Virus genome (UHGV): UHGV-1430452
Length of the DNA stretch: 64,000 nucleotides
Strand: one strand, 5' to 3'
From: a virus
Shown: positions 14,387 to 50,550 of the stretch, in pieces
Layout: every line of letters starts with the position of its first letter
Position numbering within the stretch: position 1 is the first letter of the stretch
Notes under the pieces: model-generated
What the model saw: only the letters and a program-made list of their open reading frames with translations
Database searches by the model: none
Told to the model about the DNA's origin: nothing
Made by a program: the position numbers and the translations under genes

Positions 14387-15214
14387 TTAATAGTAGCTAT
14401 CGAAACCATATTCCGGAGGCATCAGATGATCAATAACAATACACGGTTCATTATCTTCCGTAATTTGAGCACTATATCTCACATCGATTTTGCCTTTATC
14501 GATTCTCCAACCGATGCTATTACCAACTTCGGTATGCTTAAGACCAATTTCGTCATAGAAATCATTCAGAGAAATATACATCTCGTTACCGTTGATCATT
14601 CTCTCATTAAGAGTAAGAACAGCATTTTTAATCTTGTCGATATCCGATCTGAAATATCTGTCGGAATGACTGTCATAACACAACGTGTTACCTTTACCTG
14701 TCATGATAATCTGAGTGTCTGCAACCGGATGTTCTTCAACTTGCTTCTTAGCGACTTTATCTCTGATGTTATTTTCCTTCTTCTCTCCGATAGTCTCTAC
14801 CACTTTCTCTCTGTAGTCAGACAGTGCTGTTGTAGATAACTGATATGCTGTTGCCAATGCTGCGTTACGTCTTACATGTACGGAATTAGCACCGATAAGA
14901 CAAGCGACTGACGCAATGCCAGTGATAGCTGCTGGAATATAAGGTTTCCAAGCTGCTTTTACTGTTTCGACAGGTGTGAGATTTAAAGCGTTTCTTTCGT
15001 CTTCTTCTGTGAAAATACCGCCTTCATGAGCTTCTTTCTCTTTAAACTTCTTCTCTTCCTCGATTAACTCCATAGCTTTTGGTGTTGCTTTTACTGCAAG
15101 CACAACAGTAGATATCATACCTGCGATACCAATGCCAGTAAGAATTTCCGGACTGCGTTTTTTCATTACATATTTTGCAGTGTTTAAAAATTTTGTTACA
15201 TTTGGTTTGTTCAT
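14387..15214 (-). CDS. Membrane protein, paralog family member 2
   Basis: 275 aa; paralog of 11374..12312 and 16675..17451. Confidence 0.55.
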   Translation of the reverse strand: MNKPNVTKFLNTAKYVMKKRSPEILTGIGIAGMISTVVLAVKATPKAMELIEEEKKFKEKEAHEGGIFTEEDERNALNLTPVETVKAAWKPYIPAAITGIASVACLIGANSVHVRRNAALATAYQLSTTALSDYREKVVETIGEKKENNIRDKVAKKQVEEHPVADTQIIMTGKGNTLCYDSHSDRYFRSDIDKIKNAVLTLNERMINGNEMYISLNDFYDEIGLKHTEVGNSIGWRIDKGKIDVRYSAQITEDNEPCIVIDHLMPPEYGFDSYY

Positions 15215-15303
15215 TTTTTATCTCCTTTCATGAACAGTTAAATTGTTTTTACCAAAAATCCCACTCGGGAAAATTTTGATCTTGAAAAAATAGAAATCGA
15301 AAA

Positions 15304-15375
15304 GAAACAGTGTAGGACTCGAACCCACAACCTACAGATATAAGTCTGTTGCTCTACCAATTGAGCTAACTGTTT
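15304..15375 (-). tRNA. Probable tRNA; anticodon region reads CUUAUA (possibly UAU, Ile/AUA) but the loop looks one nt short in my manual fold
   Basis: Acceptor stem AAACAGT/ACTGTTT, D-arm GCTC/GAGC, T-arm GTGGG-TTCGAGT-CCTAC all pair; anticodon stem ACAGA/TCTGT. Confidence 0.55.
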
Positions 15376-15709
15376 CTTCTCATAATAGCGCTTGTAAATT
15401 TCGCGAATATAGATCTTCAGAAACAAAAAAGAAGAACCCCGAAGGATTCTCCTAGACTTTCTTCTGAAGCTCAGAAACTGCTTTCTTCAACTCTTCAAAC
15501 TCCTTTTCTTTTTTCTGATCTGATAATGCACCTGCTATAGCCATAATACCTGTTACTACAACACCTGCATATTTTCCGACAGACTTCAGAAGCGGATTAT
15601 TGATAATACCTTTGAATTTCATTTTTCTCGTCTCCTTTCTTCATTCCATTAAAGGAAATGTTTTTGTCGCGATACCGGTTTCGCTATATCAAAATATCAT
15701 CGTTTATCG

Positions 15710-17824: not shown

Positions 17825-17993
17825 TCCTTTAATTGGTTTTTGATAAAAATAAAAAGAGAATACAATGACTTCAGGGTCGGCCCAACGAAAACCGTTGCCC
17901 GGTGGGTAGCATGTTTTATTACGTTATTACGTGCCGCTACGCCTTCGTGTCTCACCACTGGATTTCCACCAGTATCTATCCATTGCTTTCTCT

Positions 17994-18020
17994 CATAATA
18001 GGTGATGTAATTTTCGCGAA
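17994..18020 (-). promoter_or_regulatory. Instance of conserved promoter-like motif (minus-strand TTCGCGAAAATTACATCACCTATTATG)
   Basis: -10-like TATTAT and palindromic TTCGCGAA core; one of about 20 copies. Confidence 0.5.
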
Positions 18021-18047
18021 TAGAAAAAGAAAATGCCTAGTTTTTAA

Positions 18048-18311: not shown

Positions 18312-18346
18312 ATAAATTCCTCCTTATTCGATTTCATTGTTTTTCT

Positions 18347-18373
18347 CATAATAGGTGATGTAATTTTCGCGAA
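18347..18373 (-). promoter_or_regulatory. Instance of conserved promoter-like motif
   Basis: Identical core CATAATAGGTGATGTAATTTTCGCGAA on the plus strand; 36 nt upstream of the ATG of 18048..18311. Confidence 0.5.
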
Positions 18374-18395
18374 AACAAAAGAGAAAGGGCCCATG

Positions 18396-18536: not shown

Positions 18537-18629
18537 TTTAGATTCCTCCTGTTAAGCAATTTATTATCTTTCCATAATAGGACTTGTAATTTTCGCGAAT
18601 TAAAAGAAAAGACACCGTGTTTCAGGTGC

Positions 18630-20357: not shown

Positions 20358-20457
20358 ATCAATAACCTCCTATAAGTTTATTCTCATAACAGGCGTTGTA
20401 ATAATAGCGAAAAAGAAGAGCCTAAGTCATTTCGACTCAAGCCCTTCCATTTTGAAA

Positions 20458-20871
20458 TTACTTTTTTGGGAGTAACTTCTGAATGAATCCTCGACCCATT
20501 ATTGTTGTGATGGTTCCAGTCTCTTCGAATTTGATAGACTTGATTGTGCCCCAGATAGTAACCGCTGTCGGTATAACAATACCCGCTCCTGTTAAGCAAT
20601 TCTTAACAACTCGATCTTTTCGTTCATCTTTAAGCTGCTCTGCTCTTAATTCAGCATCAACATTTTGCTGATCCTTTTTAAGTTCTTGTTCAGCCTTAAT
20701 TTTCTCAAGTTCGATTGCTCGATCACATAACTTTGTCAGGCCGTCTACCGTATTTTTGTACTTATCTGTACCTACTTCAAGTTTTCCTAACTCTTCGAAT
20801 TCGTCCTGAATCTCATCTTTTAATAATGTTTCAATACTCATTTTGAACTCCTCCTTATATTCGTATTTCAT
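20458..20871 (-). CDS. hypothetical protein, coiled-coil with C-terminal hydrophobic helix
   Basis: 137 aa. Confidence 0.4.
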   Translation of the reverse strand: MKYEYKEEFKMSIETLLKDEIQDEFEELGKLEVGTDKYKNTVDGLTKLCDRAIELEKIKAEQELKKDQQNVDAELRAEQLKDERKDRVVKNCLTGAGIVIPTAVTIWGTIKSIKFEETGTITTIMGRGFIQKLLPKK

Positions 20872-20882
20872 AATAGGGAATG

Positions 20883-21092
20883 TTATTTTTGCGACAGATC
20901 TACTCTAAGCATTACGTGTTTATCTTTTCGTAGCTTATATGCCTTACCACTATCTATTTCTAAAAATAAATACGGTGCTGAGTCTGGATCTGAGCTGTCT
21001 ACTTTCAGTGTGCCGATTGGCTTTTTTACTAAGAGTGTCGTTGCCACAACTGCACCTATCAGCATACCTACTAATAAAAATAAAAGTTCCAC
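20883..21092 (-). CDS. small membrane protein; start reassigned to GTG preceded by RBS AGGAGG
   Basis: Track ORF 20883..21158 begins inside a conserved intergenic motif; the downstream GTG has a strong RBS and gives a 69-aa hydrophobic protein. Confidence 0.35.
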   Translation of the reverse strand: MELLFLLVGMLIGAVVATTLLVKKPIGTLKVDSSDPDSAPYLFLEIDSGKAYKLRKDKHVMLRVDLSQK

Positions 21093-21252
21093 TACGCTAC
21101 TTCCTCCTTTCTTCAATAGAATTGTTTTATCGAAAACTCCCTCCCGGGAAATTTTCACTTTAGAATTTTAATATTGTTTCCTGTCACCTATGTACGGAAT
21201 ATCTATTCTAGATTAGAGTTTGTTTTAATCTAGGTTAAAGAAAAAAGAGAGC

Positions 21253-21489
21253 CTAAGCCCTCTTATCTGTCATAAAACTTGGTAACTGAAGTTCTGGTTT
21301 ATAAGTCATTAACTCTGCTTCATATAGCCTCATGATAATAGCTATCTCATCTTCATGAATACTTTTTATCAACTTAAAGACTTTATCATAATCAACATCT
21401 GATTTATTCTTCATTTGACAAATATAATCCACGAGTCTGGTATACTTATCATCCGCAGTTCCTATCATTGCCGCAAATTTAACTTCCAT
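21253..21489 (-). CDS. hypothetical protein
   Basis: 78 aa. Confidence 0.4.
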   Translation of the reverse strand: MEVKFAAMIGTADDKYTRLVDYICQMKNKSDVDYDKVFKLIKSIHEDEIAIIMRLYEAELMTYKPELQLPSFMTDKRA

Positions 21490-21771: not shown

Positions 21772-21813
21772 GATAGATCACTCCTATAATTTATTCTCAT
21801 AATAGGCGTTGTT

Positions 21814-22062
21814 TTAGTCGCGATCATCAAACGGTACTTCTATGTTTTCAATCTCGTCAGAAATAATCTCCCCGTCACCGATAAGTAGTTCTCTTTTGTT
21901 TATTTGATTAACGCTAGTTCGATATATACCCTCAGCTACTGCTAGTCCGATAAATGTACTTACTCCCCAAAGAATTCCTTTGATTAATTTATTAGTATCC
22001 ATTTTGAATTTTCCTCTCATGATATATTCTCTATTGGAAATCAAAAGGAAGAGTATCTGCAT
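21814..22062 (-). CDS. small membrane protein
   Basis: 82 aa. Confidence 0.35.
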   Translation of the reverse strand: MQILFLLISNREYIMRGKFKMDTNKLIKGILWGVSTFIGLAVAEGIYRTSVNQINKRELLIGDGEIISDEIENIEVPFDDRD

Positions 22063-22298: not shown

Positions 22299-22325
22299 GT
22301 CGTTACCCTCCTTTATAATAATTTT

Positions 22326-22353
22326 CTATAAAGGAGCGTGTAATTTTCGCGAA
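22326..22353 (-). promoter_or_regulatory. Instance of conserved promoter-like motif
   Basis: CTATAAAGGAGCGTGTAATTTTCGCGAA upstream of 22083..22298. Confidence 0.45.
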
Positions 22354-22401
22354 TATCTAATCCCGTGCATTAATCAACTTCAGATTCTCACTTCGTTCTA
22401 A

Positions 22402-28290: not shown

Positions 28291-28626
28291 TTAAACATCA
28301 ACAGCCCCCGTATAGGAAGGCTGAGTTTTTAACCAATCGTATGCATTTTGAATTAGATCGCCTATAAGTAGTTTCTGAGCCTCATCCCATTCAATGCTAA
28401 GATAATCCATGTTGGTGTATGGAAAAGATGGCTCTCCTATGATTCTACCAGCCATATAATCCTTATCGTATTGACGACCTTCTTTATCAATGTACGATTC
28501 TACAATAATAGTAGCTCGCTGATTAATTTCTACGTTAATGGCGGCAATATGATGATAGCTTACTACTACACCATTAGCGGTTTTAATGTTTACTTCTATA
28601 GCCAAAATATCACTCCTAAACTCCAA
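28291..28626 (-). CDS. Small protein, paralog of 31069..31350; possible fibre assembly or accessory protein
   Basis: 111 aa; shared SYID and C-terminal LKT.P...GA.D with 31069..31350; each sits just after a fibre gene. Confidence 0.45.
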   Translation of the reverse strand: MEFRSDILAIEVNIKTANGVVVSYHHIAAINVEINQRATIIVESYIDKEGRQYDKDYMAGRIIGEPSFPYTNMDYLSIEWDEAQKLLIGDLIQNAYDWLKTQPSYTGAVDV

Positions 28627-31048
28627 TTACTTGTCTAAGAACAAACCTGTTATTGGTATAAGCAACTCCATTGTTTCCCTGTCCGGTATAGTTATTTTCA
28701 ACCCCACCGGTGAGTTTGCCATCAGATATGTTCAATACTTTAACACTCGCATATCCGCAAACTTCAGACATAAGCGTGAAACACCACGGTTTTCCTGAGT
28801 ATGTAGAAACAGCGCTTTTAGGCACGAAGAAGCTATGTAATCTTGTATTAGTAGCAGACCCATTATAATAGTCAGAGAATATCAATACGATTCCATGAGG
28901 TTGATTTGATACAGGGCTACTAAAAGTTATGGTATGAGTATTACTCGGCCATAAACTTCCGGTCCATAGTGTATTATTTGTAAACCTTTCGGTAACTGAA
29001 CCTCTTACAAAGCCATTATCAGCAGTAAACGTCATAGCAGTTCTGATACTGTGAGGGGAATATGAATCTGTTGGGGTCATGAGAAAATAATTTTCGCTAC
29101 TCCCATCAACTTTTCTAGCAAACATTTTTACTGTAGGACTGACTCCTCCTCTATCCCCTTTAACGCTAACATAAGAAGCCACACCATCGTGTGACTCAAA
29201 ATTTGCTAACATATCAGCAATATCTGCTCTTAATACCACGCGATACTCTCCATCATAGCGGCTAGTGTAAATTGTTTCAGTAGTTGAGGCAGCATTAGCT
29301 TCGTATGTAATGATTGGATCATCATCATCTTCGAAATAAACGAGAACATCGTCTGTAAATGCTTCATCGTTTTCGATGACTAAAGTACCTTTTACAGTAG
29401 ATATCTTACCTCTACCGTTATTCATGGATATTACTGTATTATCTGAATTTTTCCCGAGATCTATTAACGATTCACCAAAAGTAGCCAACTCAGTAATTCC
29501 GTTTCTCATTTCGATGTCTGTACTACTAATAAGAATATTTCTGCCAAGAGTTGATGTTCTCTTATCAGCAACCATAAGTCCATTAGCATCGAAACCGAGG
29601 AAGTTTGTAGCGGTTTTAGCAGCTTCTACAGCCTGACCATAAGGATCAATCCAGCTACTCCATGTTGAAGTTGAAGTTCCAACACGCCAATATTCTTTTC
29701 CAGTACCTTCGACTTTGGCTGTCTGTCTCGGATATCCTCCGCTAGTATCTTTGTACGGCATATCAGTTCGTAAATGACAGTAAGTCCCTACTCCAGACAA
29801 TCCTATAGTAGAACAATACTTGAATTCGGCAACTGATGTACTAGGATAATTATTTATGTAATATAGCGGCGGGTAATTCGAATTTTTGGTATCTTTTACG
29901 TCAAGTCCGTCGCCTTTTGGTCCTTGTGGTCCAGTAGGTCCTTGTGGTCCTGTTGCGCCTGTACTACCAGTTTCTCCTCGTGGTCCAGTAGGTCCTTGTG
30001 GTCCAGTGGCTCCTGTGGCTCCGGTGTTACCAGTAATACATACACCATTAGATGATGGAGTATATGATGTAGTGTTGTCTGTGTACGTTACCAGTGTTCT
30101 TCTCCAAATATACTTTCCATCAGCCCACGTAGGTTGACTCGTACTCCATGATCCACCTGTTAATGTTGTCGGGGAATTGGATGAATAGAACTGTTCTTGT
30201 GTACTTTTTATGGTAGAACCCAGTGTTACGCTCAATCCATTAGCAGTCTGTTCTAGAGTAGAGACCTCGCCTTCCAAATCTGTTACTTTCGAACTTAAAC
30301 CACTGGCAGTCTGTTCTACCGTACTAACCCTGTTTCCAAGAGAAGTAGTTTCCTGTACATTTGCTTCTATTCTGTCAGCATTTTGATCGATACTGGATTT
30401 AGCGTTTGTTAGATCTGTAGTGAGCTTCGATACATCCGAAGTTAAGCCATCAGCAGTCTGTTCAAGCGTGCTTGTCCTGACACCTAATTCATTTGTGGCG
30501 TTCACATTTGCTGTAATACGTTCTCTTTCTATGTTCAGATCAGCTTCGTACTCCGTTCTGAGGTCATTCACGGCTTCCCATGAACTATCACAAACTGGGC
30601 TTGTGTATGCATTTGACGTTGGGTTCTTATACGTAATGAGATATCTCGTCCATAAATACATACCAGTAGACCAGGTAGGCATGGAAGTTACCCATGACCC
30701 GCCTGTCTGTGTTGTTTTGGAAGTGCTTAAATAATATTGCTGAGTGATGCTATCAATGCCAGTACCAGTAGGACCCTGAGATCCTGTTGCCCCGTCGGTT
30801 CCATTCTTAGGTATGTAAGATACTGAATATGTTGTAGATGTATCACCCTCTGTATATGTAATGACGGTTCTGCTCCACAAATACTGTCCAGGTGATACAG
30901 AGGGGATTGTCGTACTCCATGTACCGTTTGGAGGATTTGTGCCTGACGTACCAGCCTGATAAGTTATGACTGTGGATGTAATTCCCTTGCCGTCTATTCC
31001 GTCTATAATGTCCGAGATAGTAACCTCGGCTTTAGCTATCACAGCCAA
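28616..31048 (-). CDS. Tail fibre protein with collagen-like G-x-y repeats and repeated coiled-coil segments
   Basis: 810 aa; GATGATGPQGPTGPRGETGSTGATGPQGPTGPQGPKGDG; repeated LEQTA.GL.S.V..L motifs. Confidence 0.7.
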   Translation of the reverse strand: MAVIAKAEVTISDIIDGIDGKGITSTVITYQAGTSGTNPPNGTWSTTIPSVSPGQYLWSRTVITYTEGDTSTTYSVSYIPKNGTDGATGSQGPTGTGIDSITQQYYLSTSKTTQTGGSWVTSMPTWSTGMYLWTRYLITYKNPTSNAYTSPVCDSSWEAVNDLRTEYEADLNIERERITANVNATNELGVRTSTLEQTADGLTSDVSKLTTDLTNAKSSIDQNADRIEANVQETTSLGNRVSTVEQTASGLSSKVTDLEGEVSTLEQTANGLSVTLGSTIKSTQEQFYSSNSPTTLTGGSWSTSQPTWADGKYIWRRTLVTYTDNTTSYTPSSNGVCITGNTGATGATGPQGPTGPRGETGSTGATGPQGPTGPQGPKGDGLDVKDTKNSNYPPLYYINNYPSTSVAEFKYCSTIGLSGVGTYCHLRTDMPYKDTSGGYPRQTAKVEGTGKEYWRVGTSTSTWSSWIDPYGQAVEAAKTATNFLGFDANGLMVADKRTSTLGRNILISSTDIEMRNGITELATFGESLIDLGKNSDNTVISMNNGRGKISTVKGTLVIENDEAFTDDVLVYFEDDDDPIITYEANAASTTETIYTSRYDGEYRVVLRADIADMLANFESHDGVASYVSVKGDRGGVSPTVKMFARKVDGSSENYFLMTPTDSYSPHSIRTAMTFTADNGFVRGSVTERFTNNTLWTGSLWPSNTHTITFSSPVSNQPHGIVLIFSDYYNGSATNTRLHSFFVPKSAVSTYSGKPWCFTLMSEVCGYASVKVLNISDGKLTGGVENNYTGQGNNGVAYTNNRFVLRQVIGV

Positions 31049-31068
31049 ATAACATCACTGTCCTTTCT

Positions 31069-31350
31069 CTAAATATCTGTAGCTCCCTCGAATTCAGGAA
31101 GTGTTTTAAGATACTCATATGCAAGTTCAATTGTCATATTAGGACTATAATCTGTCTCATAAGTCTTGCTCTTTTTATAAGCAACAGAATCGAATGTGTC
31201 TTTTTCGTCATTCCTTGCATGTTCATCAATGTATGAGAGAACCGCTATGGAATTCTGCCGATTGATTGTCGACTGAATAAATAAGATTCTATGATAGTTT
31301 GTAGTAACGCCGTCCAGTTGTTTAATAGCTTTACATAATGCCATAATCAT
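31069..31350 (-). CDS. Small protein, paralog of 28291..28626
   Basis: 93 aa. Confidence 0.45.
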   Translation of the reverse strand: MIMALCKAIKQLDGVTTNYHRILFIQSTINRQNSIAVLSYIDEHARNDEKDTFDSVAYKKSKTYETDYSPNMTIELAYEYLKTLPEFEGATDI

Positions 31351-31358
31351 CAGTCTCC

Positions 31359-33143
31359 TTAACTAAAAGTAATCTTTCCGTCCCAATATATACCAATAGC
31401 ATCATTGTTTGTTACATTTGTTGTGTTAGTAAAAACTACTTTAATATAAACACCAACTCCATATGTAGCGTACGTATCATATGAATCGGGTTTCACATAA
31501 ACAGAAGCAGCCGATCCGTGTGTATACTTAGTGTTCTGCCTTAATACAAAACCGTCCAAACTGGTAGCCGTTGCAGTTGGTGATCCTATTATTGGTTTTG
31601 ACATAGGAACCCAGAATGAAATATCTCTGCCGGAATTAGTCACATAACCAGCAGTTCGTAATGTTATCGAAATGGTATCTCCACGCGAATAATATGGTTT
31701 GTATGTACCTGGACTAGCCAAGTCACTAATACCAAATGTTATGTTATGACCATAAATATTCGTGTTGCCCGTTCTAGCATCCCAGTTTCCATACCCGACA
31801 ATAGTATTACCATATTGGTTCTGAGCCTGGAATGCTTCGTGATAAGTCCCATCGGTAGCATTTTTAGCTATAATGGAATTCGGAGAATCCAGAACCACAT
31901 CTTGCCTAAAATAAGCTTTATAATTAACATCAAAAGCGTCATTTAACTCAGCTGGTTTACCAATTGATACACCTTTTCCTCCAGCTTTAAAGTCGATAGG
32001 AAATCTAGCACCACCAAGAGTTTTCTTAACCGATGTAGTACCATTCTTACTATCAGTTACTTTAATTGTGAATTCATAAGATTTATCAACGTTTAACGCA
32101 TTATCTCCTACTACTACAGAAGCGCTTCCACTATTACCAGATGCAGAGATGGTTTTCGTGTTGGTCAACCATGACACAGTTACTGATGTTACCGGGTTTG
32201 ATCCGGTTAACTGACTACAAGACCAATTAAATGTAATCTTACAATAAGTTCCGGTTTCCTGTGTCGTACCGCTTGAATTACAACGAGTAACTTTCACGCT
32301 TGATATAGTTGGAGGCTTATACGCAAGTTCCCATACAGCGTAAAGAGTAATAGCAGCATTTGAAGTATAGTTAGCTCCTGCCGCATAAGCTACAGCACCT
32401 GTCGCAGACTTAGCCCAACCTTTAAAGTTATAGTTCGTCCTGGTAGGTTTAGTAGTTGATAATTTAAGAGTTACACCGTACGTTTTCGTTTGCTGTGCAG
32501 GTGCTCCACTTCCTCCGTTAGCATTATAAGTAACTTTGTAAGTGATAGCCTGCCATACCGCATAAAGAGTAACACTCGCATTTGCTGTATAACTTGCCCC
32601 AGCAGCATAAGCCACACCCCCAGTAGAAGATGTGGCCCAACCTTTAAATGTATATCCTGTTCTCGTAGGTTTTGTAGACGATAATGTAATGTTTGTTCCA
32701 TGCCATTTTGTCTGTTGAGATGGAGCACCTGAACCTCCGTTTGCGTTATAACTAATCTTATAGGAAGTTTTAGCCGCAACCGAGATCGATCCACTGGCAG
32801 TCTTAGTTCCAGCGTAGGTTCCGCTCCATGTGAAATTCATTTCAAAGGAGAACCACAAAGCGATAGATCTTGCTGATGTTCCCTTTGTAATAGTTACGGT
32901 TCCACTTGTAATTGTCTGAGAACTTTTACCACCTATGGAGAATGTTCCAGATTTAACAACTTTACCATCTATTTTGACACTGTAATTTTTCGCAACGCTA
33001 GAGTTAACAGTATATCCATGAGTTACCCATTTGAGTGTCCAAGAAAGTGTGGCAGTGGTTGCAGTACTACTTGACTGAGTTACTACAAGTTGAACCTGCG
33101 GACAGGATGAACTACCAAATTGTGCCGTTGTTAAAGTTGCCAT
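31359..33143 (-). CDS. Tail protein with two Listeria-Bacteroides-type (Flg_new-like) repeats; probable receptor-binding protein
   Basis: 594 aa; duplicated YNANGGSGAP.QQTK...TKPTRTGY.FKGWA...AYAAGA.YT.NA..TLYAVW. Confidence 0.65.
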   Translation of the reverse strand: MATLTTAQFGSSSCPQVQLVVTQSSSTATTATLSWTLKWVTHGYTVNSSVAKNYSVKIDGKVVKSGTFSIGGKSSQTITSGTVTITKGTSARSIALWFSFEMNFTWSGTYAGTKTASGSISVAAKTSYKISYNANGGSGAPSQQTKWHGTNITLSSTKPTRTGYTFKGWATSSTGGVAYAAGASYTANASVTLYAVWQAITYKVTYNANGGSGAPAQQTKTYGVTLKLSTTKPTRTNYNFKGWAKSATGAVAYAAGANYTSNAAITLYAVWELAYKPPTISSVKVTRCNSSGTTQETGTYCKITFNWSCSQLTGSNPVTSVTVSWLTNTKTISASGNSGSASVVVGDNALNVDKSYEFTIKVTDSKNGTTSVKKTLGGARFPIDFKAGGKGVSIGKPAELNDAFDVNYKAYFRQDVVLDSPNSIIAKNATDGTYHEAFQAQNQYGNTIVGYGNWDARTGNTNIYGHNITFGISDLASPGTYKPYYSRGDTISITLRTAGYVTNSGRDISFWVPMSKPIIGSPTATATSLDGFVLRQNTKYTHGSAASVYVKPDSYDTYATYGVGVYIKVVFTNTTNVTNNDAIGIYWDGKITFS

Positions 33144-40894: not shown

Positions 40895-43800
40895 TTATAT
40901 CCTCCTTTCTATCACGGCTGCTCTTACAATTTCTTTAACAGCTTCTGTAATATTGCTTCCATCATCATAAGTAAGACCGTTAATGTTATATGAAACACCA
41001 CCAACATTACCTAAGTCTTTACGAAGTCTGTTTATTGCTGAAACAACATCATCCATAGATCCATTTTGAATTCTTTCACCCATCATAGAATTTATGGTGT
41101 TTAGTCTTGACATTACTCCCAATGTAGGAGTTCCATTCAACATGCCGTTAATTGCACTAGCTCCAGATTTAATATCAGACAAATCAAGGACTGGTCTTAT
41201 TGTCGGCTGAGTGTTGATATCTCCGTCAAGAAGACTCGAAATTCTCGACATTGCTGTTTGAGTACTGTTAACAGCGTTATCGGACATTCTAGAAATAGAT
41301 TGTTTCACTAATCCTCCGAACATACCGATACCCTTAGCAAATCCAATAGGAACATATGAACCTATTTTCATGAACACCCTTGAAGGTGAATGAATAGCAA
41401 GATTAGCCCTAGCTGCTGCCGATGCTGCCGCTGCCATTGAAGCTGCTGCATTTGCCGCCGACCAAATGTTCGCTTGAATACCTGCTACAAATCCGCTAGC
41501 TACATAAGATCCAGAACTATAAAAGCTTGAATAATATCCTCTAGTAGAAGATACTGCTGAAGACAATATCGACGTTGTTGTGTTCACAACACTTGAAGCT
41601 CTACTTCGCATACCGTTTACGAATTGTGTCATTAAAGCAACGCCATTAGTTCCAAATACGGATCTTTTACTGCTAATAGCTTTAAGCATCGAGTTGATAA
41701 TATTGGTAGCTGTTGATGTTACCAATGCTTGTTTTGATTTCAAACCATTAGAGAAAGATGTAATTAAGTTCGATCCAATGTTCGACATCTTAGACGTTGA
41801 ACCACTAAATGATTTAGTAATACTATTCATAGAAGTTTGACCCAAAGTAGATACAGCAGTTTTAAACGATGCTACGCCGCTTGTGTTAAGTCCGGCCAAA
41901 CTACTAATAAAATTCTTAATCTTAGTAGCCGCTGTTATAGAGCTAGATATTGATCCGACATTTATACCTGCAACAGAATCAGAGTAACTTTTTAAAGTAC
42001 TTCCGATAGTTCCTATCTTAAAGTTTGAAACTCCACTAGAATCCAAACTTGATAGTCCCTGAATAAAAGTCTTTAATCTATTTGCCGCAGTAACAGAAGA
42101 TGTAACTTTACCAGAGTCCACATTTTCAACCGACTTAGAGTAGCTCTTCAAAGTAGTTCCAATAGATCCTATTTTGAAGTTACTAACACCACTACTATCC
42201 AATCCCGTAAGACTTGATACAAAATTTCTAAGTCTATTTGCTGATGATATGGATGATGAGACTATACCCGGGTCCATATCTTTAACGGAGTTTCCGTAGT
42301 CCTGCATAGCCTTACCTATGGAATTAATCTTGAAGTTTTCAATACCGCTTGTATCAAGACCCACCAGACTAGCTATTAAACTCTTAAGTCTTAAAGCTAC
42401 TGAGACTGCTGTGTTTACTTTAGCGATATCGATATCGGCTACAGATTCTCCGAACTTACCTATAGCCTGTCCAATATTAACCAAATGACCGTCTCCGGCT
42501 CCAACACCTGCAAAGCTACTAACACCACTTGCATCGAGATCGGCTAAAGCGGTAATCAGGTTTTTAATCCTATAAGCGGCTGTTATGGCGGTGTTTATAC
42601 CATCAGAGTTTATGTTTGCAGCGTCTGTTGAGAATGTAGTCATGGCCGAGCTGAATTTTTCGACGTATTTTGAGAATTCCTCAAGATTCATCTTACCGTC
42701 AAACCAGCCTTCTTCTGGAAGGGCTTCTTGAAGAGCTATAATAGCGCTACCTGCATTCGTTACGGATGTTACGACTGCTTCCGATATACCGTCCTCTCCC
42801 ATTCCGGTTTTAAGTTTGCCCATAGCTGTAGCAAATTGACCTATGTTTTCGCCAAAAGTTCCTAAGTCATCTTTTCCGGTAAACCAGTCGATTACTCCTC
42901 CCATATTCTCAAGAGAAGATTGTAATCCAGCAAGTTTAGTAGCCGCATTTATAATAGAAGTAATTGAATCATCATCTATTTTTGTATCTCCTAAATCGGC
43001 AAAAGCAGTTTTCATCGATCCCATAAAGCTAGCGACACTAGACCCAAAAGTCCCTAAGTCGTCCCTTCCAGTGAACCAGTCAACCACTCCTCCTATATTT
43101 TCAAGCGATGACTGCAAGCCTGATAATTTAGTAGCTGCGTCGATGATTATGCCGATTGCTTCGGTATTTATTTTGACTCCGTCTAAGCTTGAAAATGCTT
43201 TTGTCATAGATCCTATAAATAGACCTATATTTACACCAAATGTGCCGAGGTCGTCTCTACCTTTAAACCAGCTTATTACTCCACCTATTGGTTCGAGTGC
43301 TGACTGCAATCCTGCTAATTTAGTTGATCCATCGATAATGGTAGTCAAAGCTTCAGAATTAAATTCAACACCATCAAGACTCTGAAAAGCAGTTTTCATA
43401 GAGAATATAAATTGAGCTACGTTTGTTCCAAAAGTTCCAAGATCATCTCTACCTTTAAACCAACTTATTACTCCGCCTATAGGTTCCAATGACGATTGTA
43501 AATTAGCTAGAATAGTAGTAGCACTTATTATTGCGGTTAATCCTTCTGTGTTTAAAGTAATTCCTTCTAGATCAGAGAACGCAACTTTCATGGAAGATAT
43601 GAATTCTCCTACACTTTCTCCAAATGTGCCGAGGTCGTCTCTACCTTTAAACCAGCTTATTACTCCGCCTATTGGTTCAAGGCTAGATTGAAGTTTACTC
43701 AGTTCAGCAGCTCCAGTAATGATCGATGTTAAAGCTTCCGTATTGAAGGATACTCCGTCAAGACCTAGAAAAGCATTCTTCATTGAGAATATAAATTGAC

Positions 43801-46800
43801 CGACGTTAGTTCCGAAAGTCGCGAGGTCATCCCTGCCAGAGAACCAATCCATAACACCGCCTATAGGCTCCAATGACGATTGTAATTCGCTAAGTTTCGT
43901 TGCTACATTTATCACAGCGCCCATTGCCGCCTCGTCTATTGTGATTCCAGCAGAAGCTTGCGATATCGCTTTCATAGCATTGAAGAACGCAACACCATCG
44001 GTCTCAAACTTCTCCATAGAAGTACCACCGAGAGTGAATATGTCAGCGATAGAAGTACCAACTGTTGTAAATCCTATCTCTGCCATAGCACTCATTAAAT
44101 CGGACACGCCATCGAAAGATCCTGATTTAATACCACTAGCATTTTCGCTTGCTATAGCTAGTTTGTCCATGAAATCAGCAATATTTTGACCTATTTCCGG
44201 TAAACTTCCGGTAATACCTTCTCCGATTCCTCCTATGAATGCTCCGATTCCTTTGCCGATTGCGTTTCCTATTTTTCCTAATAATCCACCGCCAGCTTCA
44301 ACAAGGGACGAAAAACCTGGAATTTTAGATAACCCACCGATTGCTGCCAGAAGTACTGCTATCTCAGCTATTACAGCACCAACGGCTAATACTCCGGTCA
44401 TTGCTGGGCCGGCTAAAGCTCCAGCTCCGGCGAATACTTTCATCAATATTCCGATTACTCCGAATGCACCTATGCCTTTTAGCATAGTATCCATATCTAA
44501 ATTGCCTATCGAATCGACGATACCTTTGACAACTTGTCCGACAAAATTCATTATTGCCGATATTAATTCTGGAGTATGCTCGGCAAGACTATTAATAACT
44601 CCGATTATAAAACCGAGAAGTGAATCGACAATCTGTGGTGCATACTGTTCTAATGCGTCTAAAACGCCTAAGAGCAGTTTCAGAAAACTTTCAGCCAATT
44701 GAGGTGCATATTCTCCTATAACTTTTGCGATTTCGACGATACCTCGACCTATTACTTCAGCAATTTGTGGAATCAATCCTAAAATACCGGTGATTATAAC
44801 TGTTATTGATGCGACAAGCGCTGTGGCACCAGCAGTTCCAGCAGTAGCAAGAGCTGTGAATCCAGCTGATAGAGCAAGTATACCAACGCCAATTCCAGCT
44901 ATAGCTACAGCAAATATAGCCATCGCAGCGGATAAACCAAGTATTGCCGGAGTGAGTGGACTCAGAAGAGCTCCAGCTACTCCTATTACTACAAAGGCTC
45001 CAGCAAGAGTTACGAGACCTTTTACTATGCTCTCCCAACTCATAGATCCTAATGATTTCAATACAGGTGTTAAAATTGCTAATCCAGCAGCTGCAACAAC
45101 TAATGCGGCAGACCCCTTAAGAGATCCACTCATGGCTTTTAATCCAATAGATAGCTCGACCAAAGCTATTCCAAGTACAACGAGTCCTTTTCCTATACTC
45201 TCCCAGCTCATCGATCCTAATGATTTTAAGACTGGAGTTAATATAGCAAGTGCTGACGCCATCAAAAGCATTTGACCGCCGAACTTAGCGATAGATCCAC
45301 TACCCTTGCTCATAATTTTAGAAGCTAACACCAGCATTGTAACAATACCTAATATTCCAGCTCCACCTTTAGCTAATTCGTTCCAACTCATAGAACCCAA
45401 ACTCTTACCAACAGCAGCCAAAATGCCAACCGCAGCTGACATGATAAGCATCTGTCCAGCAAATTTGGTTATAGACTTACTTTCAGTATTCATGAGTTTG
45501 GCAGCACCAACTAATATAGCGACTATTCCTAATATTCCGGCCCCACCTTTGGCTAATTCTTCCCAACTCATTGAACTGAGAATTTTAGCGACTCCAGATA
45601 ACGCTGCTATTGCTGCTGATAATATAAGCATCTGTCCAGCAAATTTGGTTATAGACTTACTTTCGGTATTCATAAGTTTAGCAGCCGCGACGAGTATAGC
45701 TACCATTCCACCAATACCAACGAGGCCTTTTGCTACACCGTTCCAATCAAGTCCAGCTATAATTTTCATAGCGCCTGCTAATATAAGAATAGCTGCTCCG
45801 AGTCCAATCATCTGAACAGTTCTAGCTATACCTGACAAACTTGATACTATACCAGATAAAGGTTTGACACTTTTGCTGTTTATTTTTTCAAGCACTGCTA
45901 ATGCAGATATCAACTCTACAAACAAACCGCCTATTGCGCCTAAAGAACTTCCGAGTTTATCCTCGTCTATTCCAGATATGACAAAAAGAGCCGCTGCCAG
46001 TATTCCAATAGCACCCGCTATTTTTAGCAATGTTCCGGCTTTAAGATTCTGTTGCCATGATTCCAAACTTCCCTTAACGCCATCAAGTATTTTTTTAACG
46101 TTATCTAAGAAACTTATTTTTTCGAATGGATCAGATAATCCTTTAATAAAGTTTCTTATGGCTAGTAATATTCCAGCAAACAATCCGCTGTTTAATACTT
46201 CGAAAATATCGCCTTTACCAAAGGCATCGGCTATCATATTACCTATATCGGAAAAAGCTTCTCCGATGGCCGCGCCAACCGACTTTATAGTGTTCCATAG
46301 ACCGGAAAAGAAGCCAAGAAAACCTTGAAGTGTAGGAGAAATCTTAAAACTCTCAATAAGTGAGCGTCCAAACTCTGCTATTTTTGAAATCCCGTTGCTA
46401 AGAAATCCAACAATTTTATCAACTGCGTCGCCAAACAGATTTCCTTCTACTATGGAGTCTCTCACATTCGAGATAAAATCTCCAAAAGAACTCGTTGCAT
46501 CCAGTATTCCTCCACCAAGTCCGGTGAAGTTTCCAATAATATCTAGAGCGCCTTTTCCAACAGCTTTAAAAGCCTCTATAACAATATCGATAGCGGAAAA
46601 GATTCCTTTAAATGTAGATTTTATTTTAGATGCAGCGCCTTCACTTACTTTTAAAGTATCAGTGAAAGCTTTGAATCTATCAATCATACTTACTACTTGG
46701 TCGACTGTAGTAGGTGGAAATATCTCTCTAAAAGCTTCTTTTATCGGTTTTATTATATCTCCAAGGAATTTGAATATATTTTTCAAACCCTCTATAATTT

Positions 46801-48831: not shown

Positions 48832-50550
48832 TTACAGTAGCTCGTTAACTCGATCCTGAATTTTCTGAATCATGTTGTGATCGTATCCAGCTTTTGCGAG
48901 GGCATTAATTCGTGCATCTCCATTACCGTATTTTCCGGCAATGACATCACGGGCTACATTATCAATCACTATCTGATTTACTTTCTTCTGCACAGTGTCT
49001 GGATTATAACCAGCTTTCTTGAGAGCAGACACACGAGCATCACCATTACCCCATTTTCCAGCTAAAACCTCTTTAGCTACTTCATCGATAGATTTAGTAG
49101 GTTTTGCAGGAGCTTTAAGTAGTTCATTCACTTTCTTCTGTACAGTGTCTGGATTATAACCAGCTTTCTTGAGAGCAGACACACGAGCATCACCATTACC
49201 CCATTTTCCAGCTAAAACCTCTTTAGCTACTTCATCGATAGATTTAGTAGGTTTTGCAGGAGCTTTAAGTAGTTCATTCACTTTCTTCTGTACAGTGTCT
49301 GGATTATAACCAGCTTTCTTGAGAGCAGACACACGAGCATCACCATTACCCCATTTACCGGCGATTACTTCTTTAGCAATTTCATCGATAGATTTGGTCG
49401 GTTTTGGCGTAGATGTAGGTTTAGATGTTGGTGCTGGTGTGGAAGAACTTTTCGCATATTTTGGTCTAGCAAAACCACGAATCATACCCCAGCCAACCGG
49501 AATGGTACGTCTTGCTACTGCTTCTCCTCTGTTACCTTCAATCGCTGTGATTTGTCCGTTTGAAACAGATTCCACATACCCGATATGATCAGAATATCCG
49601 TCGTTTGGCTGAGTCTTATCATCCCAGTTATAAACAATTACATCACCAGGTTTCGGAGTAATGGTGCCGTCCTCGACCCAAATGCCTTTCTGCTTAAAAA
49701 TCTTAATATGTTCCTCACAACCAACTTCTGTACCGATGAGATCGACTGCTCCGGATTTGATAGCTGCTGCTGATACTGTACAATCACACCATTCATCATT
49801 AGGTTTAATAGCGTATCCGCGAGCCAAAGGTTTGTGAGAATTATAGATGTTAAGAATCTCAATATATTTACCGTTAGCTTCAGAATAACCGAGCCAACTT
49901 CTCATAACATTAAGAACGTCCTGTGCTGTTACACCCAATTCCGTATCCTCCTGTTTTCCGTAAAAATAGTTCATGTCGACTTTACCTTTAATACCGCCTA
50001 CAGTTCCGGAACTCGTATACTGATGAACCAAACAACCGTAATCTGCTTTTCCGTTATAATCAGCGAGCCAGAATTTGTACTGTTTAATCAGATCATGATT
50101 ATACCAATTTCGATAGTAGTCGATATTTGCGTAGATTCCAGCTTTGTATCCCTGAGATTCTACGTACTCACAAAAGATTCTTGTAAAGTTATTACATTCA
50201 TTTTTACCAAGTCTCACACCTTTTGCAGCTGCTTTCTTGACTGTGTCATATTCGAAATCTGCGAAGATGATTGTGTTTTTATCAAGACCAGCTTTTCTAA
50301 CAACATCAACACAGAATTTTGCTTCGTCAAGTGCGCCCTGTTCGTTTAAGGCATAAATAAAATGGTAAGTTCCTATAATCGGAATCTTGTTGTTTTTACA
50401 CCCATTGACATACTCATAGAATTTTGAATCTACTGTCTTCCTGTAAGAAGATCTAAGAATCGCGAACTCTATTCCGGAGGACTTGACTTTAGAAAAATCT
50501 ACATCTCCCTGCCAATAGCTGATATCAATTCCTTTCTTCACAATCATCAT
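48832..50550 (-). CDS. Endolysin: GH25 muramidase + Cys/His peptidase domain (CHAP or NlpC/P60-like) + tandem CW_7 cell-wall-binding repeats
   Basis: 572 aa; GH25-like GIDISYWQG; Cys...His block; repeated IDEVAKEVLAGKWGNGDARVSALKKAGYNPDTVQKKVNELL. Confidence 0.88.
   Translation of the reverse strand: MMIVKKGIDISYWQGDVDFSKVKSSGIEFAILRSSYRKTVDSKFYEYVNGCKNNKIPIIGTYHFIYALNEQGALDEAKFCVDVVRKAGLDKNTIIFADFEYDTVKKAAAKGVRLGKNECNNFTRIFCEYVESQGYKAGIYANIDYYRNWYNHDLIKQYKFWLADYNGKADYGCLVHQYTSSGTVGGIKGKVDMNYFYGKQEDTELGVTAQDVLNVMRSWLGYSEANGKYIEILNIYNSHKPLARGYAIKPNDEWCDCTVSAAAIKSGAVDLIGTEVGCEEHIKIFKQKGIWVEDGTITPKPGDVIVYNWDDKTQPNDGYSDHIGYVESVSNGQITAIEGNRGEAVARRTIPVGWGMIRGFARPKYAKSSSTPAPTSKPTSTPKPTKSIDEIAKEVIAGKWGNGDARVSALKKAGYNPDTVQKKVNELLKAPAKPTKSIDEVAKEVLAGKWGNGDARVSALKKAGYNPDTVQKKVNELLKAPAKPTKSIDEVAKEVLAGKWGNGDARVSALKKAGYNPDTVQKKVNQIVIDNVARDVIAGKYGNGDARINALAKAGYDHNMIQKIQDRVNELL
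48981..49430. repeat. Three near-identical 150-bp tandem repeats (plus one divergent copy upstream) encoding the CW_7 repeats
   Basis: CTTTCTTCTG(C/T)ACAGTGTCTGGATTATAACCAGCTTTCTTGAGAGCAGACACACGAGCATCACC units at about 48981, 49132 and 49282. Confidence 0.8.

What the first reader, a model, noticed from the sequence alone, without database searches (positions are those of the whole stretch)
15238..15275. Second conserved intergenic element (minus-strand GGGATTTTTGGTAAAAAC with a short upstream hairpin) in three copies
Near-identical elements occur at 15238..15275 (just after the tRNA), 21121..21157 and 63961..64000 (window end). Each has a short C/G hairpin (TCCC-n-GGGA) followed by TTTTTGGTAAAAAC, and sits upstream of a gene start. 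At 21121..21157 it overlaps the annotated start of the ORF-track gene, which argues for the downstream GTG start. Could be a terminator-promoter cassette or a regulator binding site.
Basis: seen in the sequence. Interest (0 to 1): 0.4.

Follow-up and report, generated by a model that had tools for sequence, protein, structure and literature searches.

The report
Phage-specific promoter motif beside genome end
A roughly 45-base motif present three times in this gut-bacterial virus is most likely a special promoter used by the virus's own transcription machinery, and one copy sits at the physical end of the viral DNA, where the late (particle-building) genes begin.

Summary
There are three co-oriented minus-strand copies at 15286..15241, 21165..21119 and 64000..63961. 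A profile built only from other phages finds these three sites and nothing else significant in the window.

The window is a temperate siphovirus of gut Lachnospiraceae, of the Faecalibacterium phage FP_oengus group. The motif is conserved across this large group in two settings:
- **At the genome end.** One copy lies 8-9 nt inside the left cohesive end. It follows a ~1000-aa YonO/RdRP-like putative RNA polymerase gene and precedes the late operon.
- **At internal sites.** These lie about 20-25 nt upstream of ribosome-binding sites, or upstream of tRNA genes, often directly after a strong terminator.

The motif matches neither a sigma-A promoter nor the genome's real terminators. It shows no sign of RNA-level selection and has no Rfam match.

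Best reading: a phage-specific, probably late-class, promoter. It is probably read by the phage's own single-subunit polymerase, for which I found no described promoter. The main rival is a host-polymerase promoter that needs a phage activator. A purely packaging (cosB) role does not explain the internal copies.

No transcription start sites are available, so the promoter role is inferred. The polymerase gene lies outside the window and was seen only in relatives.

The parts
15241..15286 (-). Site 1 element: TTCAAGATCAAAATTT-TCCCGAGTGGGA-TTTTTGG-TAAAAACAATT. The core inverted repeat is 15270..15259.
   Evidence: E = 7.9e-11 with a profile from other phages. An orthologous copy exists only in the closest relative, L108.
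21119..21165 (-). Site 2 element: TTCTAAAGTGAAAATT-TCCCGGGAGGGA-GTTTTCGA-TAAAACAATTC. The core inverted repeat is 21149..21138.
   Evidence: E = 4.7e-12. Conserved in 13 of 14 related IMG/VR loci and in many more found by pattern search.
63961..64000 (-). Site 3 element: (C)TTCAGAAGT-TCTCCGGCGGGA-TTTTTGG-TAAAAACAAAAG. It starts at the physical left end of the phage genome and is the proposed late-operon promoter.
   Evidence: E = 6.7e-4.
14387..15214 (-). Gene downstream of site 1: a DUF6353 membrane protein of 275 aa.
20883..21092 (-). Gene downstream of site 2: a small single-pass membrane protein (69 aa from the GTG at 21092, phrog_15309). The longest-ORF start at 21158 lies inside the element and is spurious.
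20458..20871 (-). Second gene of the site 2 unit (137 aa, phrog_15866).
21245..21264 (-). Strong intrinsic terminator 80 nt upstream of site 2. It closes the preceding unit.
20414..20448 (-). Strong intrinsic terminator that closes the site 2 unit. The next 'family-1' promoter follows at 20412..20374.
15303..15376 (-). tRNA gene immediately upstream of site 1. It is driven by a family-1 promoter at 15408..15370.
63409..63753 (-). First gene of the late operon (114 aa, phrog_4259), 207 nt downstream of site 3. It is followed by HNH endonuclease, connector, TerL, portal and capsid genes.

Best explanation
The element is a phage-specific promoter, probably of the late temporal class.

**Anatomy.** It has an A/T-rich upstream block (TTYRAAA..AAAAT), a G+C-rich inverted-repeat core (TCYCC-N0-5-GGRGA), a T-tract, and a conserved RAAAACAAWTT where transcription probably starts.

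**Roles of the three copies.**
- Site 3 is the promoter of the ~37-kb late operon. It lies 8-9 nt inside the left cohesive end.
- Sites 1 and 2 are extra promoters of the same class. They drive membrane-protein genes embedded in the early region.

**Proposed reader.** The most likely reader is the phage's own ~1000-aa YonO/RdRP-like single-subunit RNA polymerase. It carries sigma-region-4-like helix-turn-helix domains at both ends. In every relative examined it is encoded immediately upstream of cos.

**Shown:** the motif, its conservation, its positions, the genome end, and the polymerase-like gene in relatives.

**Inferred:** that transcription starts at the motif, that this polymerase reads it, and that the window's own phage carries the polymerase gene, which lies outside the window.
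For: 1. **Position in the window.**
   - All three copies are intergenic and co-oriented with the genes.
   - The site 2 unit is bracketed by strong terminators. It has no copy of the other promoter family and no sigma-A match.

2. **Conservation.**
   - Site 2 is conserved in 13 of 14 relatives whose flanking protein is only 48-60% identical.

3. **IMG/VR pattern scan: 93 matches.**
   - 19 abut cos.
   - 48 are internal, with a ribosome-binding site and a co-oriented ORF, mostly 20-25 nt downstream. Several follow a terminator by about 12 nt (L202 type), which leaves no room for another promoter.
   - 57 of the 93 loci carry marker genes of this phage group.

4. **tRNA genes.** The element also precedes tRNA-Met genes (L207, L228, L276). 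In this window a family-1 promoter occupies that position upstream of the tRNA.

5. **The cos-adjacent copy.** It is family-wide. In many relatives the first late ORF starts 25-50 nt after it.

6. **The polymerase-like gene.**
   - It is found directly upstream of cos in 30 related loci, including the closest relative.
   - It carries R-x-P-H and GADFDGD motifs with the same spacing as YonO.
   - It belongs to PHROG 4291 and is labelled 'RNA-dependent RNA polymerase' in RefSeq.
   - A preprint reports an HHpred match to PF05183 at 95.7% probability, with HTH domains at both ends (bioRxiv 10.1101/842583).

7. **Precedent.** YonO of SPbeta transcribes its late operon from one start site, and its promoter was left undefined (PMC5467207).
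Against: - No transcription start site data exist for any member of the group.
- The polymerase gene is not in the window.
- Polymerase activity of this protein family is unproven. The AlphaFold model was too poor to use (pLDDT 52). Comparisons with YonO by hhalign and with PDB sequences were negative.
- The hexamer after the core (GATTTT, GATATT, TATATT) keeps the A and T of a -10 element, so host sigma-A with an activator is possible.
- The copy at cos sits at a fixed distance from the cut. That would also suit a packaging signal.
- FP_oengus has only the cos copy.
- The IMG/VR pattern scan required TTCCC...GGGA, so it cannot be used to judge covariation.
- SPbeta shows no similar motif.
Confidence: 0.5

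Rival explanations
1. It is a promoter, but it is read by the host sigma-A RNA polymerase with help from a phage-encoded activator bound to the inverted repeat. This would resemble MerR-type promoters, with a dyad in an over-long spacer, or the late promoters of P2/Mu and of RinA/ArpU-controlled phages that lack a -35.
For: - The hexamer right after the core keeps A at position 2 and T at position 6 (GATTTT, GAGTTT, GATATT, TATATT).
- A TTYRAA block lies 19-20 nt upstream of it, and TTGAAA lies 17 nt upstream in L216 and L269.
- All the positional evidence for a promoter applies equally here.
Against: - The consensus scan finds no sigma-70-type promoter at the three sites.
- Both hexamers are poor matches, and the spacer is too long without a MerR-like factor.
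- No such activator was identified.
- The phage group carries a polymerase-like gene exactly where late activators usually sit.
Confidence: 0.2
2. It is a packaging signal, a cosB-like binding site for the small terminase or an accessory protein next to the cos cut. The internal copies would be decoys or secondary regulatory sites of the same protein.
For: - The core lies at a fixed distance of about 17 nt from the left end in all relatives.
- Many contigs start exactly at CTT.., and two carry Illumina adapter fused to that base.
- Right-end contigs stop at ..CAT, which implies a 9-nt 3' overhang.
- FP_oengus has only this copy.
Against: - It gives no reason for internal copies. These are conserved, always co-oriented with the next gene or tRNA, and placed 20-25 nt before its ribosome-binding site, often just after a terminator.
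- The internal copies lack the adjacent cut-site sequence.
Confidence: 0.1
3. It is an operator for a phage repressor or other regulator that switches off otherwise ordinary promoters. It would not be a promoter itself.
For: It has an inverted-repeat core with strong sequence conservation.
Against: - No separate promoter can be placed beside it in the terminator-element-gene arrangements.
- It is absent from the repressor/early-switch region at 22.8-23.4 kb.
Confidence: 0.08
4. It acts as RNA. It could be a 5'-UTR hairpin (stabiliser, processing site, or nut/put-like antiterminator) or a weak intrinsic terminator/attenuator.
For: - There is a hairpin followed by a U-run.
- An extended A-tract/U-tract stem of about 11 bp is predicted at the three window sites, with a C-G to G-C swap at its base.
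- Site 2 just passes the terminator scan.
Against: - Fold z-scores are +0.33 to -0.60.
- Across 64 homologues the sense strand is not systematically more stable than the antisense strand (38 vs 25; means -5.8 vs -5.4 kcal/mol).
- The A-tract arm is replaced by T-rich sequence in many cos copies, so the long stem is not conserved.
- The 'loop' bases are conserved in sequence.
- The element lies downstream of terminators, with no promoter in between.
- It precedes tRNA genes.
- There is no Rfam match.
Confidence: 0.07

Closest known systems
Late promoter of SPbeta used by the single-subunit two-barrel RNA polymerase YonO (P_YONO)
   Same: - Both are temperate Firmicute siphoviruses.
- In both, a ~100-kDa RdRP/YonO-like protein with an R-x-P-H ... 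D-x-D-G-D signature is encoded just upstream of the late operon.
- In SPbeta one start site serves the whole late operon (PMC5467207).
   Different: - The SPbeta promoter sequence was not defined, and I found no similar motif in SPbeta.
- The protein here has HTH domains at both ends and is not detectably similar to YonO beyond the motifs.
- Here the promoter candidate abuts a cos end.
Single-subunit phage RNA polymerase promoters (T7 class: a conserved ~23-bp motif repeated through the genome, with copies near the genome ends)
   Same: - A compact conserved motif occurs in several co-oriented copies, one close to a genome end.
- A G+C-rich recognition part is followed by an A/T-rich part where melting and initiation would occur.
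   Different: - The polymerase belongs to a different, unrelated fold.
- The motif differs and contains an inverted repeat.
- There are only three copies per genome.
Hairpin promoters of coliphage N4 virion RNA polymerase
   Same: A short G+C stem with a small loop precedes the presumed start by about 10 nt. There are three copies per genome, one set near the genome end.
   Different: - As I recall, N4 stems are 5-7 bp with a 3-nt loop and are read by a T7-like enzyme on extruded single strands.
- Here the stem is 4-5 bp with a 0-5 nt centre.
- Nothing here shows extrusion, and the candidate enzyme is of another fold. The resemblance is a lead only.
Lambda cosB (terminase-binding sites next to cosN)
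   Same: The site 3 copy lies between the cut site and the first packaging-operon gene, at a fixed distance from the cut.
   Different: Lambda's sites are clustered at cos only. Here there are conserved copies 43-49 kb away, at gene starts.
[quoted passage not shown]
   Same: These are phage-specific motifs unlike host promoters, found upstream of start sites of genes read by phage two-barrel polymerases (PMC10770324).
   Different: - The motifs, phage, host and temporal class (pre-early/early) all differ.
- Those promoters were mapped experimentally. This one was not.

Membership tests
Intrinsic (Rho-independent) terminator | A stable G+C-rich stem (usually at least 5-7 bp) directly followed by a U-tract | tested here: not met
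   - The core stem is 4 bp.
- Minimum free energy is -8.7 to -12 kcal/mol, with z from +0.33 to -0.60 against shuffles.
- Only site 2 reaches the scan's minimum of 5 pairs, whereas real terminators in this genome have 8-16 pairs.
- In many relatives the T-tract is interrupted (TATATTTT).
Intrinsic (Rho-independent) terminator | Lies at the 3' end of a transcription unit | tested here: not met
   - Site 2 lies 80 nt after a strong terminator.
- L202-type copies lie about 12 nt after one.
- Site 3 lies at the start of the genome.
Sigma-70/sigma-A promoter | TTGACA-like and TATAAT-like hexamers 16-18 bp apart | tested here: not met
   - The consensus scans list no promoter-like site at the three positions.
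- By eye, the only -10-like hexamer (GATTTT/GAGTTT) has no -35 partner at 16-18 bp.
Phage-RNA-polymerase-specific promoter | A conserved motif unlike host promoters, in several copies, intergenic and co-oriented with the downstream genes | tested here: met
Phage-RNA-polymerase-specific promoter | The phage encodes its own RNA polymerase | tested here: inconclusive
   - A YonO/RdRP-like gene lies next to cos in 30 related loci, in the closest relative (L117) and in FP_oengus.
- The gene lies outside the window.
- Its enzymatic activity is unproven. The structure model was unusable.
Phage-RNA-polymerase-specific promoter | Transcripts start at the motif and depend on the phage polymerase | not testable with these tools
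   No transcriptome or biochemical data were available.
N4-type hairpin promoter | A 5-7 bp stem with a 3-nt loop, read by a T7-like virion RNA polymerase (from my own knowledge of N4) | tested here: not met
   - Stems are 4-5 bp, with a centre of 0-5 nt.
- No T7-like or virion polymerase was found. The 2515-aa protein is a tape measure protein.
cosB / terminase recognition site | Lies next to the cos cut site | tested here: met
   Site 3 and all its homologues start 8-9 nt from the left end.
cosB / terminase recognition site | Confined to the cos region | tested here: not met
   Conserved internal copies occur at gene and tRNA starts.
RNA element (nut/put-like antiterminator, 5' stabiliser, Rfam family) | Structure conserved on the transcribed strand, located downstream of a promoter | tested here: not met
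   - There is no strand asymmetry in folding.
- The long stem is not conserved.
- No promoter can be placed upstream in the terminator-element-gene units.
- No Rfam match.
MerR-type activated promoter | A dyad operator inside a 19-20 bp spacer between -35 and -10, with a MerR-family regulator present | tested here: inconclusive
   - 19-20 nt separate TTYRAA from GATTTT at most internal sites, with the dyad between them.
- Both hexamers are weak.
- No regulator was identified.

The most novel reading that the evidence does not exclude
The element is the first recognisable promoter for the HTH-flanked YonO/RdRP-like single-subunit RNA polymerases of gut Firmicute phages.
- Its inverted-repeat core would be read by the enzyme's two sigma-region-4-like HTH domains, or extruded as a hairpin as in N4.
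- The copy fixed about 17 nt from the cos cut would couple the start of late transcription to recognition of the genome end for packaging.
Probability: 0.15. Interest if true: 0.8.

Novelty: new variant of a known kind. Interest (0 to 1): 0.6.

Why it matters
**The open question.** YonO-like two-barrel single-subunit RNA polymerases are regarded as possible relics of the ancestor of cellular RNA polymerases. What they recognise as a promoter was left open for SPbeta (PMC5467207). In the papers I could search, nothing addresses it for the large Oengus-like group of human-gut phages.

**What this offers.** A short conserved motif sits at the start of the late operon, next to the polymerase gene, and recurs at other gene and tRNA starts. 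That gives a concrete template for in vitro transcription, for ChIP and for start-site mapping.

**Practical by-products.**
- It defines the physical genome ends of this phage group, a cos site with a 9-nt 3' overhang.
- It corrects a gene start in the window.
- It helps annotate transcription units in thousands of gut phage contigs.

Tried and rejected
**Searches and computations that led nowhere**
- An exact 20-mer search of IMG/VR found nothing.
- Megablast against GenBank phages gave only a 173-nt match.
- I tried to walk to the rest of the source contig. The first ORF is not on record, and proteins from fetched loci may not be looked up. The window phage's own right arm therefore stayed out of reach. 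L195 and L196 are right arms of similar phages and hold no further copies.
- MT835485.1 has the site 2 copy but neither cos nor the polymerase gene.
- The AlphaFold model of the polymerase-like protein was too poor to search with (pLDDT 52, catalytic region below 50).
- BLASTP and hhalign against YonO were negative. So were PDB sequence searches and NCBIfam.
- SPbeta has no similar motif.

**Readings considered and rejected**
- **Terminator:** the stem is too weak and the element is in the wrong place.
- **Sigma-A promoter:** the hexamers and spacing do not fit.
- **ECF-type promoter with GAAAC as the -35:** there is no room before the ribosome-binding site at sites 1 and 2.
- **UP element of a downstream promoter:** rejected for the same reason.
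- **Assembly break caused by a repeat, as the reason contigs end at site 3:** the shared sequence is far shorter than the assemblers' k, and adapter-fused ends show real DNA ends.
- **Small ORF after site 3:** it has no ribosome-binding site.

Full report
**What the window is.** Nearly all genes are on the minus strand.
- A late operon runs from 63753 down to about 26.4 kb. It encodes HNH endonuclease, connector, TerL, portal, a protease-capsid fusion, endolysin, a 2515-aa tape measure protein and tail proteins.
- A serine integrase and a two-HTH repressor-like gene lie on the plus strand at 23.4-25.7 kb.
- An early/replication region runs from about 22.8 kb to position 1 and includes a 1408-aa primase-polymerase.
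- The nearest annotated relatives are a human-faecal phage scaffold (MT835485.1) and Faecalibacterium phage FP_oengus.
- Related prophages sit in Lachnospiraceae such as Hungatella hathewayi.

**The observation.** All three copies exist on the minus strand.
- Sites 1 and 3 share an exact 20-mer. Site 2 is a diverged copy.
- The 18-mer occurs twice, against 0.07 matches expected with 3 mismatches allowed.
- The fair test is a profile built from 29 elements of other phages only. It recovers the three sites at E = 4.7e-12, 7.9e-11 and 6.7e-4, and nothing else below E = 0.4.
- The unit is longer than reported, about 45 nt. It comprises an A/T-rich 5' block, a G+C inverted-repeat core, a T-tract and RAAAACAAWTT.

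**Genomic setting in the window.** The early region is built from cassettes of a strong terminator, a 'family-1' promoter-like element (ATTCGCGAAT palindrome, 14 nt, TATTAT) and a gene. There are at least 14 such elements.
- **Site 2.** Its unit is built the same way but carries the studied element in place of family-1. The order is terminator 21264..21245, element 21165..21119, genes 21092..20883 and 20871..20458, then terminator 20448..20414.
- **Site 1.** It lies between a tRNA (which has its own family-1 promoter) and a DUF6353 gene.
- **Site 3.** It lies at the window end, 207 nt before the first late gene.

**The window end is the genome end.**
- Independent assemblies all begin at (C)TTCAGAAG.
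- Dozens of related IMG/VR contigs begin at the homologous CTT.
- Two contigs (L032, L056) carry Illumina adapter fused to that base.
- Contigs that cover the other end stop at ...CAT.
- In contigs and prophages that span the junction, the sequence reads ...CACCCCCTCCCTGCAT-CGCGGCGGT-CTTCAAAAATTCTCCGG....
- The nine bases missing from both kinds of end fit a 9-nt 3' overhang removed by end repair. This last step is my inference.
- The site 3 element therefore starts at the first base of the left end. Its core sits at a constant distance of about 17 nt from the cut across the whole family.

**What lies upstream of cos.** Thirty related loci have enough sequence upstream of cos, including the closest relative (contig 061906, L117). 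In each, the last large gene before cos encodes a 900-1050-aa protein with an invariant GADFDGD.
- It matches PHROG 4291 at E = 0.
- RefSeq labels it 'RNA-dependent RNA polymerase' in FP_oengus gp55.
- It has sigma-region-4-like HTH matches near both termini.
- It shares an R-x-P-H ... (about 45 residues) ... D-x-D-G-D arrangement with YonO of SPbeta.
- A preprint reports an HHpred match to the RdRP family PF05183 at 95.7% probability and notes the two HTH domains (10.1101/842583).
- My own attempts to confirm the fold failed.
- YonO is a proven DNA-dependent RNA polymerase that transcribes the SPbeta late operon from one start site. Its promoter was left undefined (PMC5467207).

**Comparative evidence on the element.**
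- Site 2 is conserved in 13 of 14 relatives, although the neighbouring protein is only 48-60% identical.
- Site 1 is found only in the closest relative. There a two-base change (CCC to CCA, GGGA to GGAA) shifts the 4-bp stem but keeps it. More distant relatives have a plain terminator at that spot and no tRNA.
- A degenerate pattern scan of IMG/VR returned 93 matches:
  - 19 abut cos.
  - 48 are internal, with a ribosome-binding site and a co-oriented ORF, mostly 20-25 nt downstream.
  - 26 are other matches, many probably chance.
- Several internal copies follow a strong terminator by about 12 nt (L202 type).
- 57 of the 93 loci carry marker genes of this phage group in the fragments fetched.
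- The element also precedes tRNA-Met genes.
- In many relatives the first late ORF starts 25-50 nt after the cos copy.

**DNA or RNA?**
- The three window copies can fold into stems of about 11 bp, but z-scores are near zero.
- Across 64 distinct homologues the sense strand is not systematically more stable than the antisense strand.
- The A-rich 5' arm is replaced by T-rich sequence in many cos copies.
- The centre of the repeat is conserved in sequence (CCGGNGG).
- There is no Rfam match.
- The signal therefore looks like a DNA recognition site with an inverted-repeat core, not a structured RNA.

**Mechanism proposed.**
- The element is a promoter of a class distinct from family-1.
- The polymerase-like gene is the last gene before cos. 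Once it is expressed, its product would start the late operon at site 3 and the two membrane-protein units at sites 1 and 2.
- The G+C core and upstream block would serve for binding, possibly by the HTH domains.
- The T-tract would serve for melting, with the start in RAAAAC. These assignments are inferred.
- A host sigma-A promoter dependent on a phage activator is the main rival. The hexamer after the core keeps the A and T of a -10 element, and a TTYRAA block lies 19-20 nt upstream, which is a MerR-like geometry.
- A pure packaging role fits site 3 but not the internal copies. A dual role for site 3 is not excluded.

**Limits.**
- There are no start-site data.
- The polymerase gene was not seen in this phage itself.
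- Polymerase activity is unproven.
- The pattern scan is biased towards the core sequence that I required.
- Only three copies exist per genome, and FP_oengus has just the cos copy.

**Verdict.** The feature is real and conserved. It is best read as a new promoter motif tied to a poorly understood phage RNA polymerase family. The terminator reading is not supported.

Noticed in passing
window 15370-15408, 17983-18021, 18336-18374, 18562-18600, 20374-20412, 21787-21825, 22316-22354 and at least 7 more (minus strand): A 'family-1' element (minus strand ATTCGCGAAAATTACATCACCTATTATGAGA). It has a perfect ATTCGCGAAT palindrome where a -35 would be, only 14 nt before a TATTAT -10. Most copies are immediately preceded by a strong intrinsic terminator, so the early region is a string of insulated single-gene cassettes. 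It is probably the host-polymerase promoter class with an operator or activator site.
   Followed up: partly
window 64000 (window end); L001 1-40; L032, L056, L119, L132-L134, L140, L141: The window ends one base short of the physical left end of the phage genome. The contig ends and adapter fusions imply a cos site ...CAT / CGCGGCGGT / CTT... with a 9-nt 3' overhang. On the other side it is flanked by a long G+C hairpin (GGGGGAGGG...CCCCCTCCC).
   Followed up: yes
L117 1414-4575; L095 510-3419; L198/L199 (FP_oengus gp55, record 28591-31365): A ~1000-aa protein with RYPH...GADFDGD motifs and HTH domains at both ends is always the last large gene before cos. It is followed by a conserved 86-90-aa ORF (phrog_4303). 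Some genome annotations call it an ArsR or CsgD-type regulator.
   Followed up: partly
window 15303-15376 (minus): ARAGORN reports this tRNA as 'tRNA-???, anticodon (ta)'. Read by eye, the anticodon arm is ACAGA-CTTATA-TCTGT, which gives a 6-nt loop (or 8 nt with a 4-bp stem). Rfam scores it as a tRNA at 62 bits. The same odd arm is present in the closest relative (L108).
   Followed up: no
window 21171-21240 (minus): About 80 nt upstream of site 2 are also conserved across relatives. The block holds an 8-bp inverted repeat CTAGATTA...TAATCTAG (21233..21208) and the blocks CCGTAC (21197..21192) and GGTGAC (21188..21183). Its function is unknown, and it does not fit a sigma-A promoter consistently.
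   Followed up: partly
window 63918-63942 (minus): A second conserved block lies about 35 nt downstream of the cos-adjacent element (GCGGTATTTAACAAGGCTCATATGG; family consensus RGYRTTTAAARGRGCTYAYRRGG). It could be a terminase-binding (cosB) site or a leader element.
   Followed up: no
window 15241-15408 versus L109-L114: The block 'family-1 promoter + tRNA + element' upstream of the DUF6353 gene is present only in this phage and its closest relative. Other relatives have another gene and a plain terminator there, so the block looks like a recent insertion.
   Followed up: partly
window 42833-43915 and 48976-49425: There are six 192-nt repeats inside the tape measure gene and three 150-nt repeats in the endolysin gene, whose product has CW_7 cell-wall-binding repeats. 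Collagen-like GXY repeats occur in tail-fibre genes at 29.9, 35.0 and 56.7 kb. These are ordinary features for such proteins.
   Followed up: no
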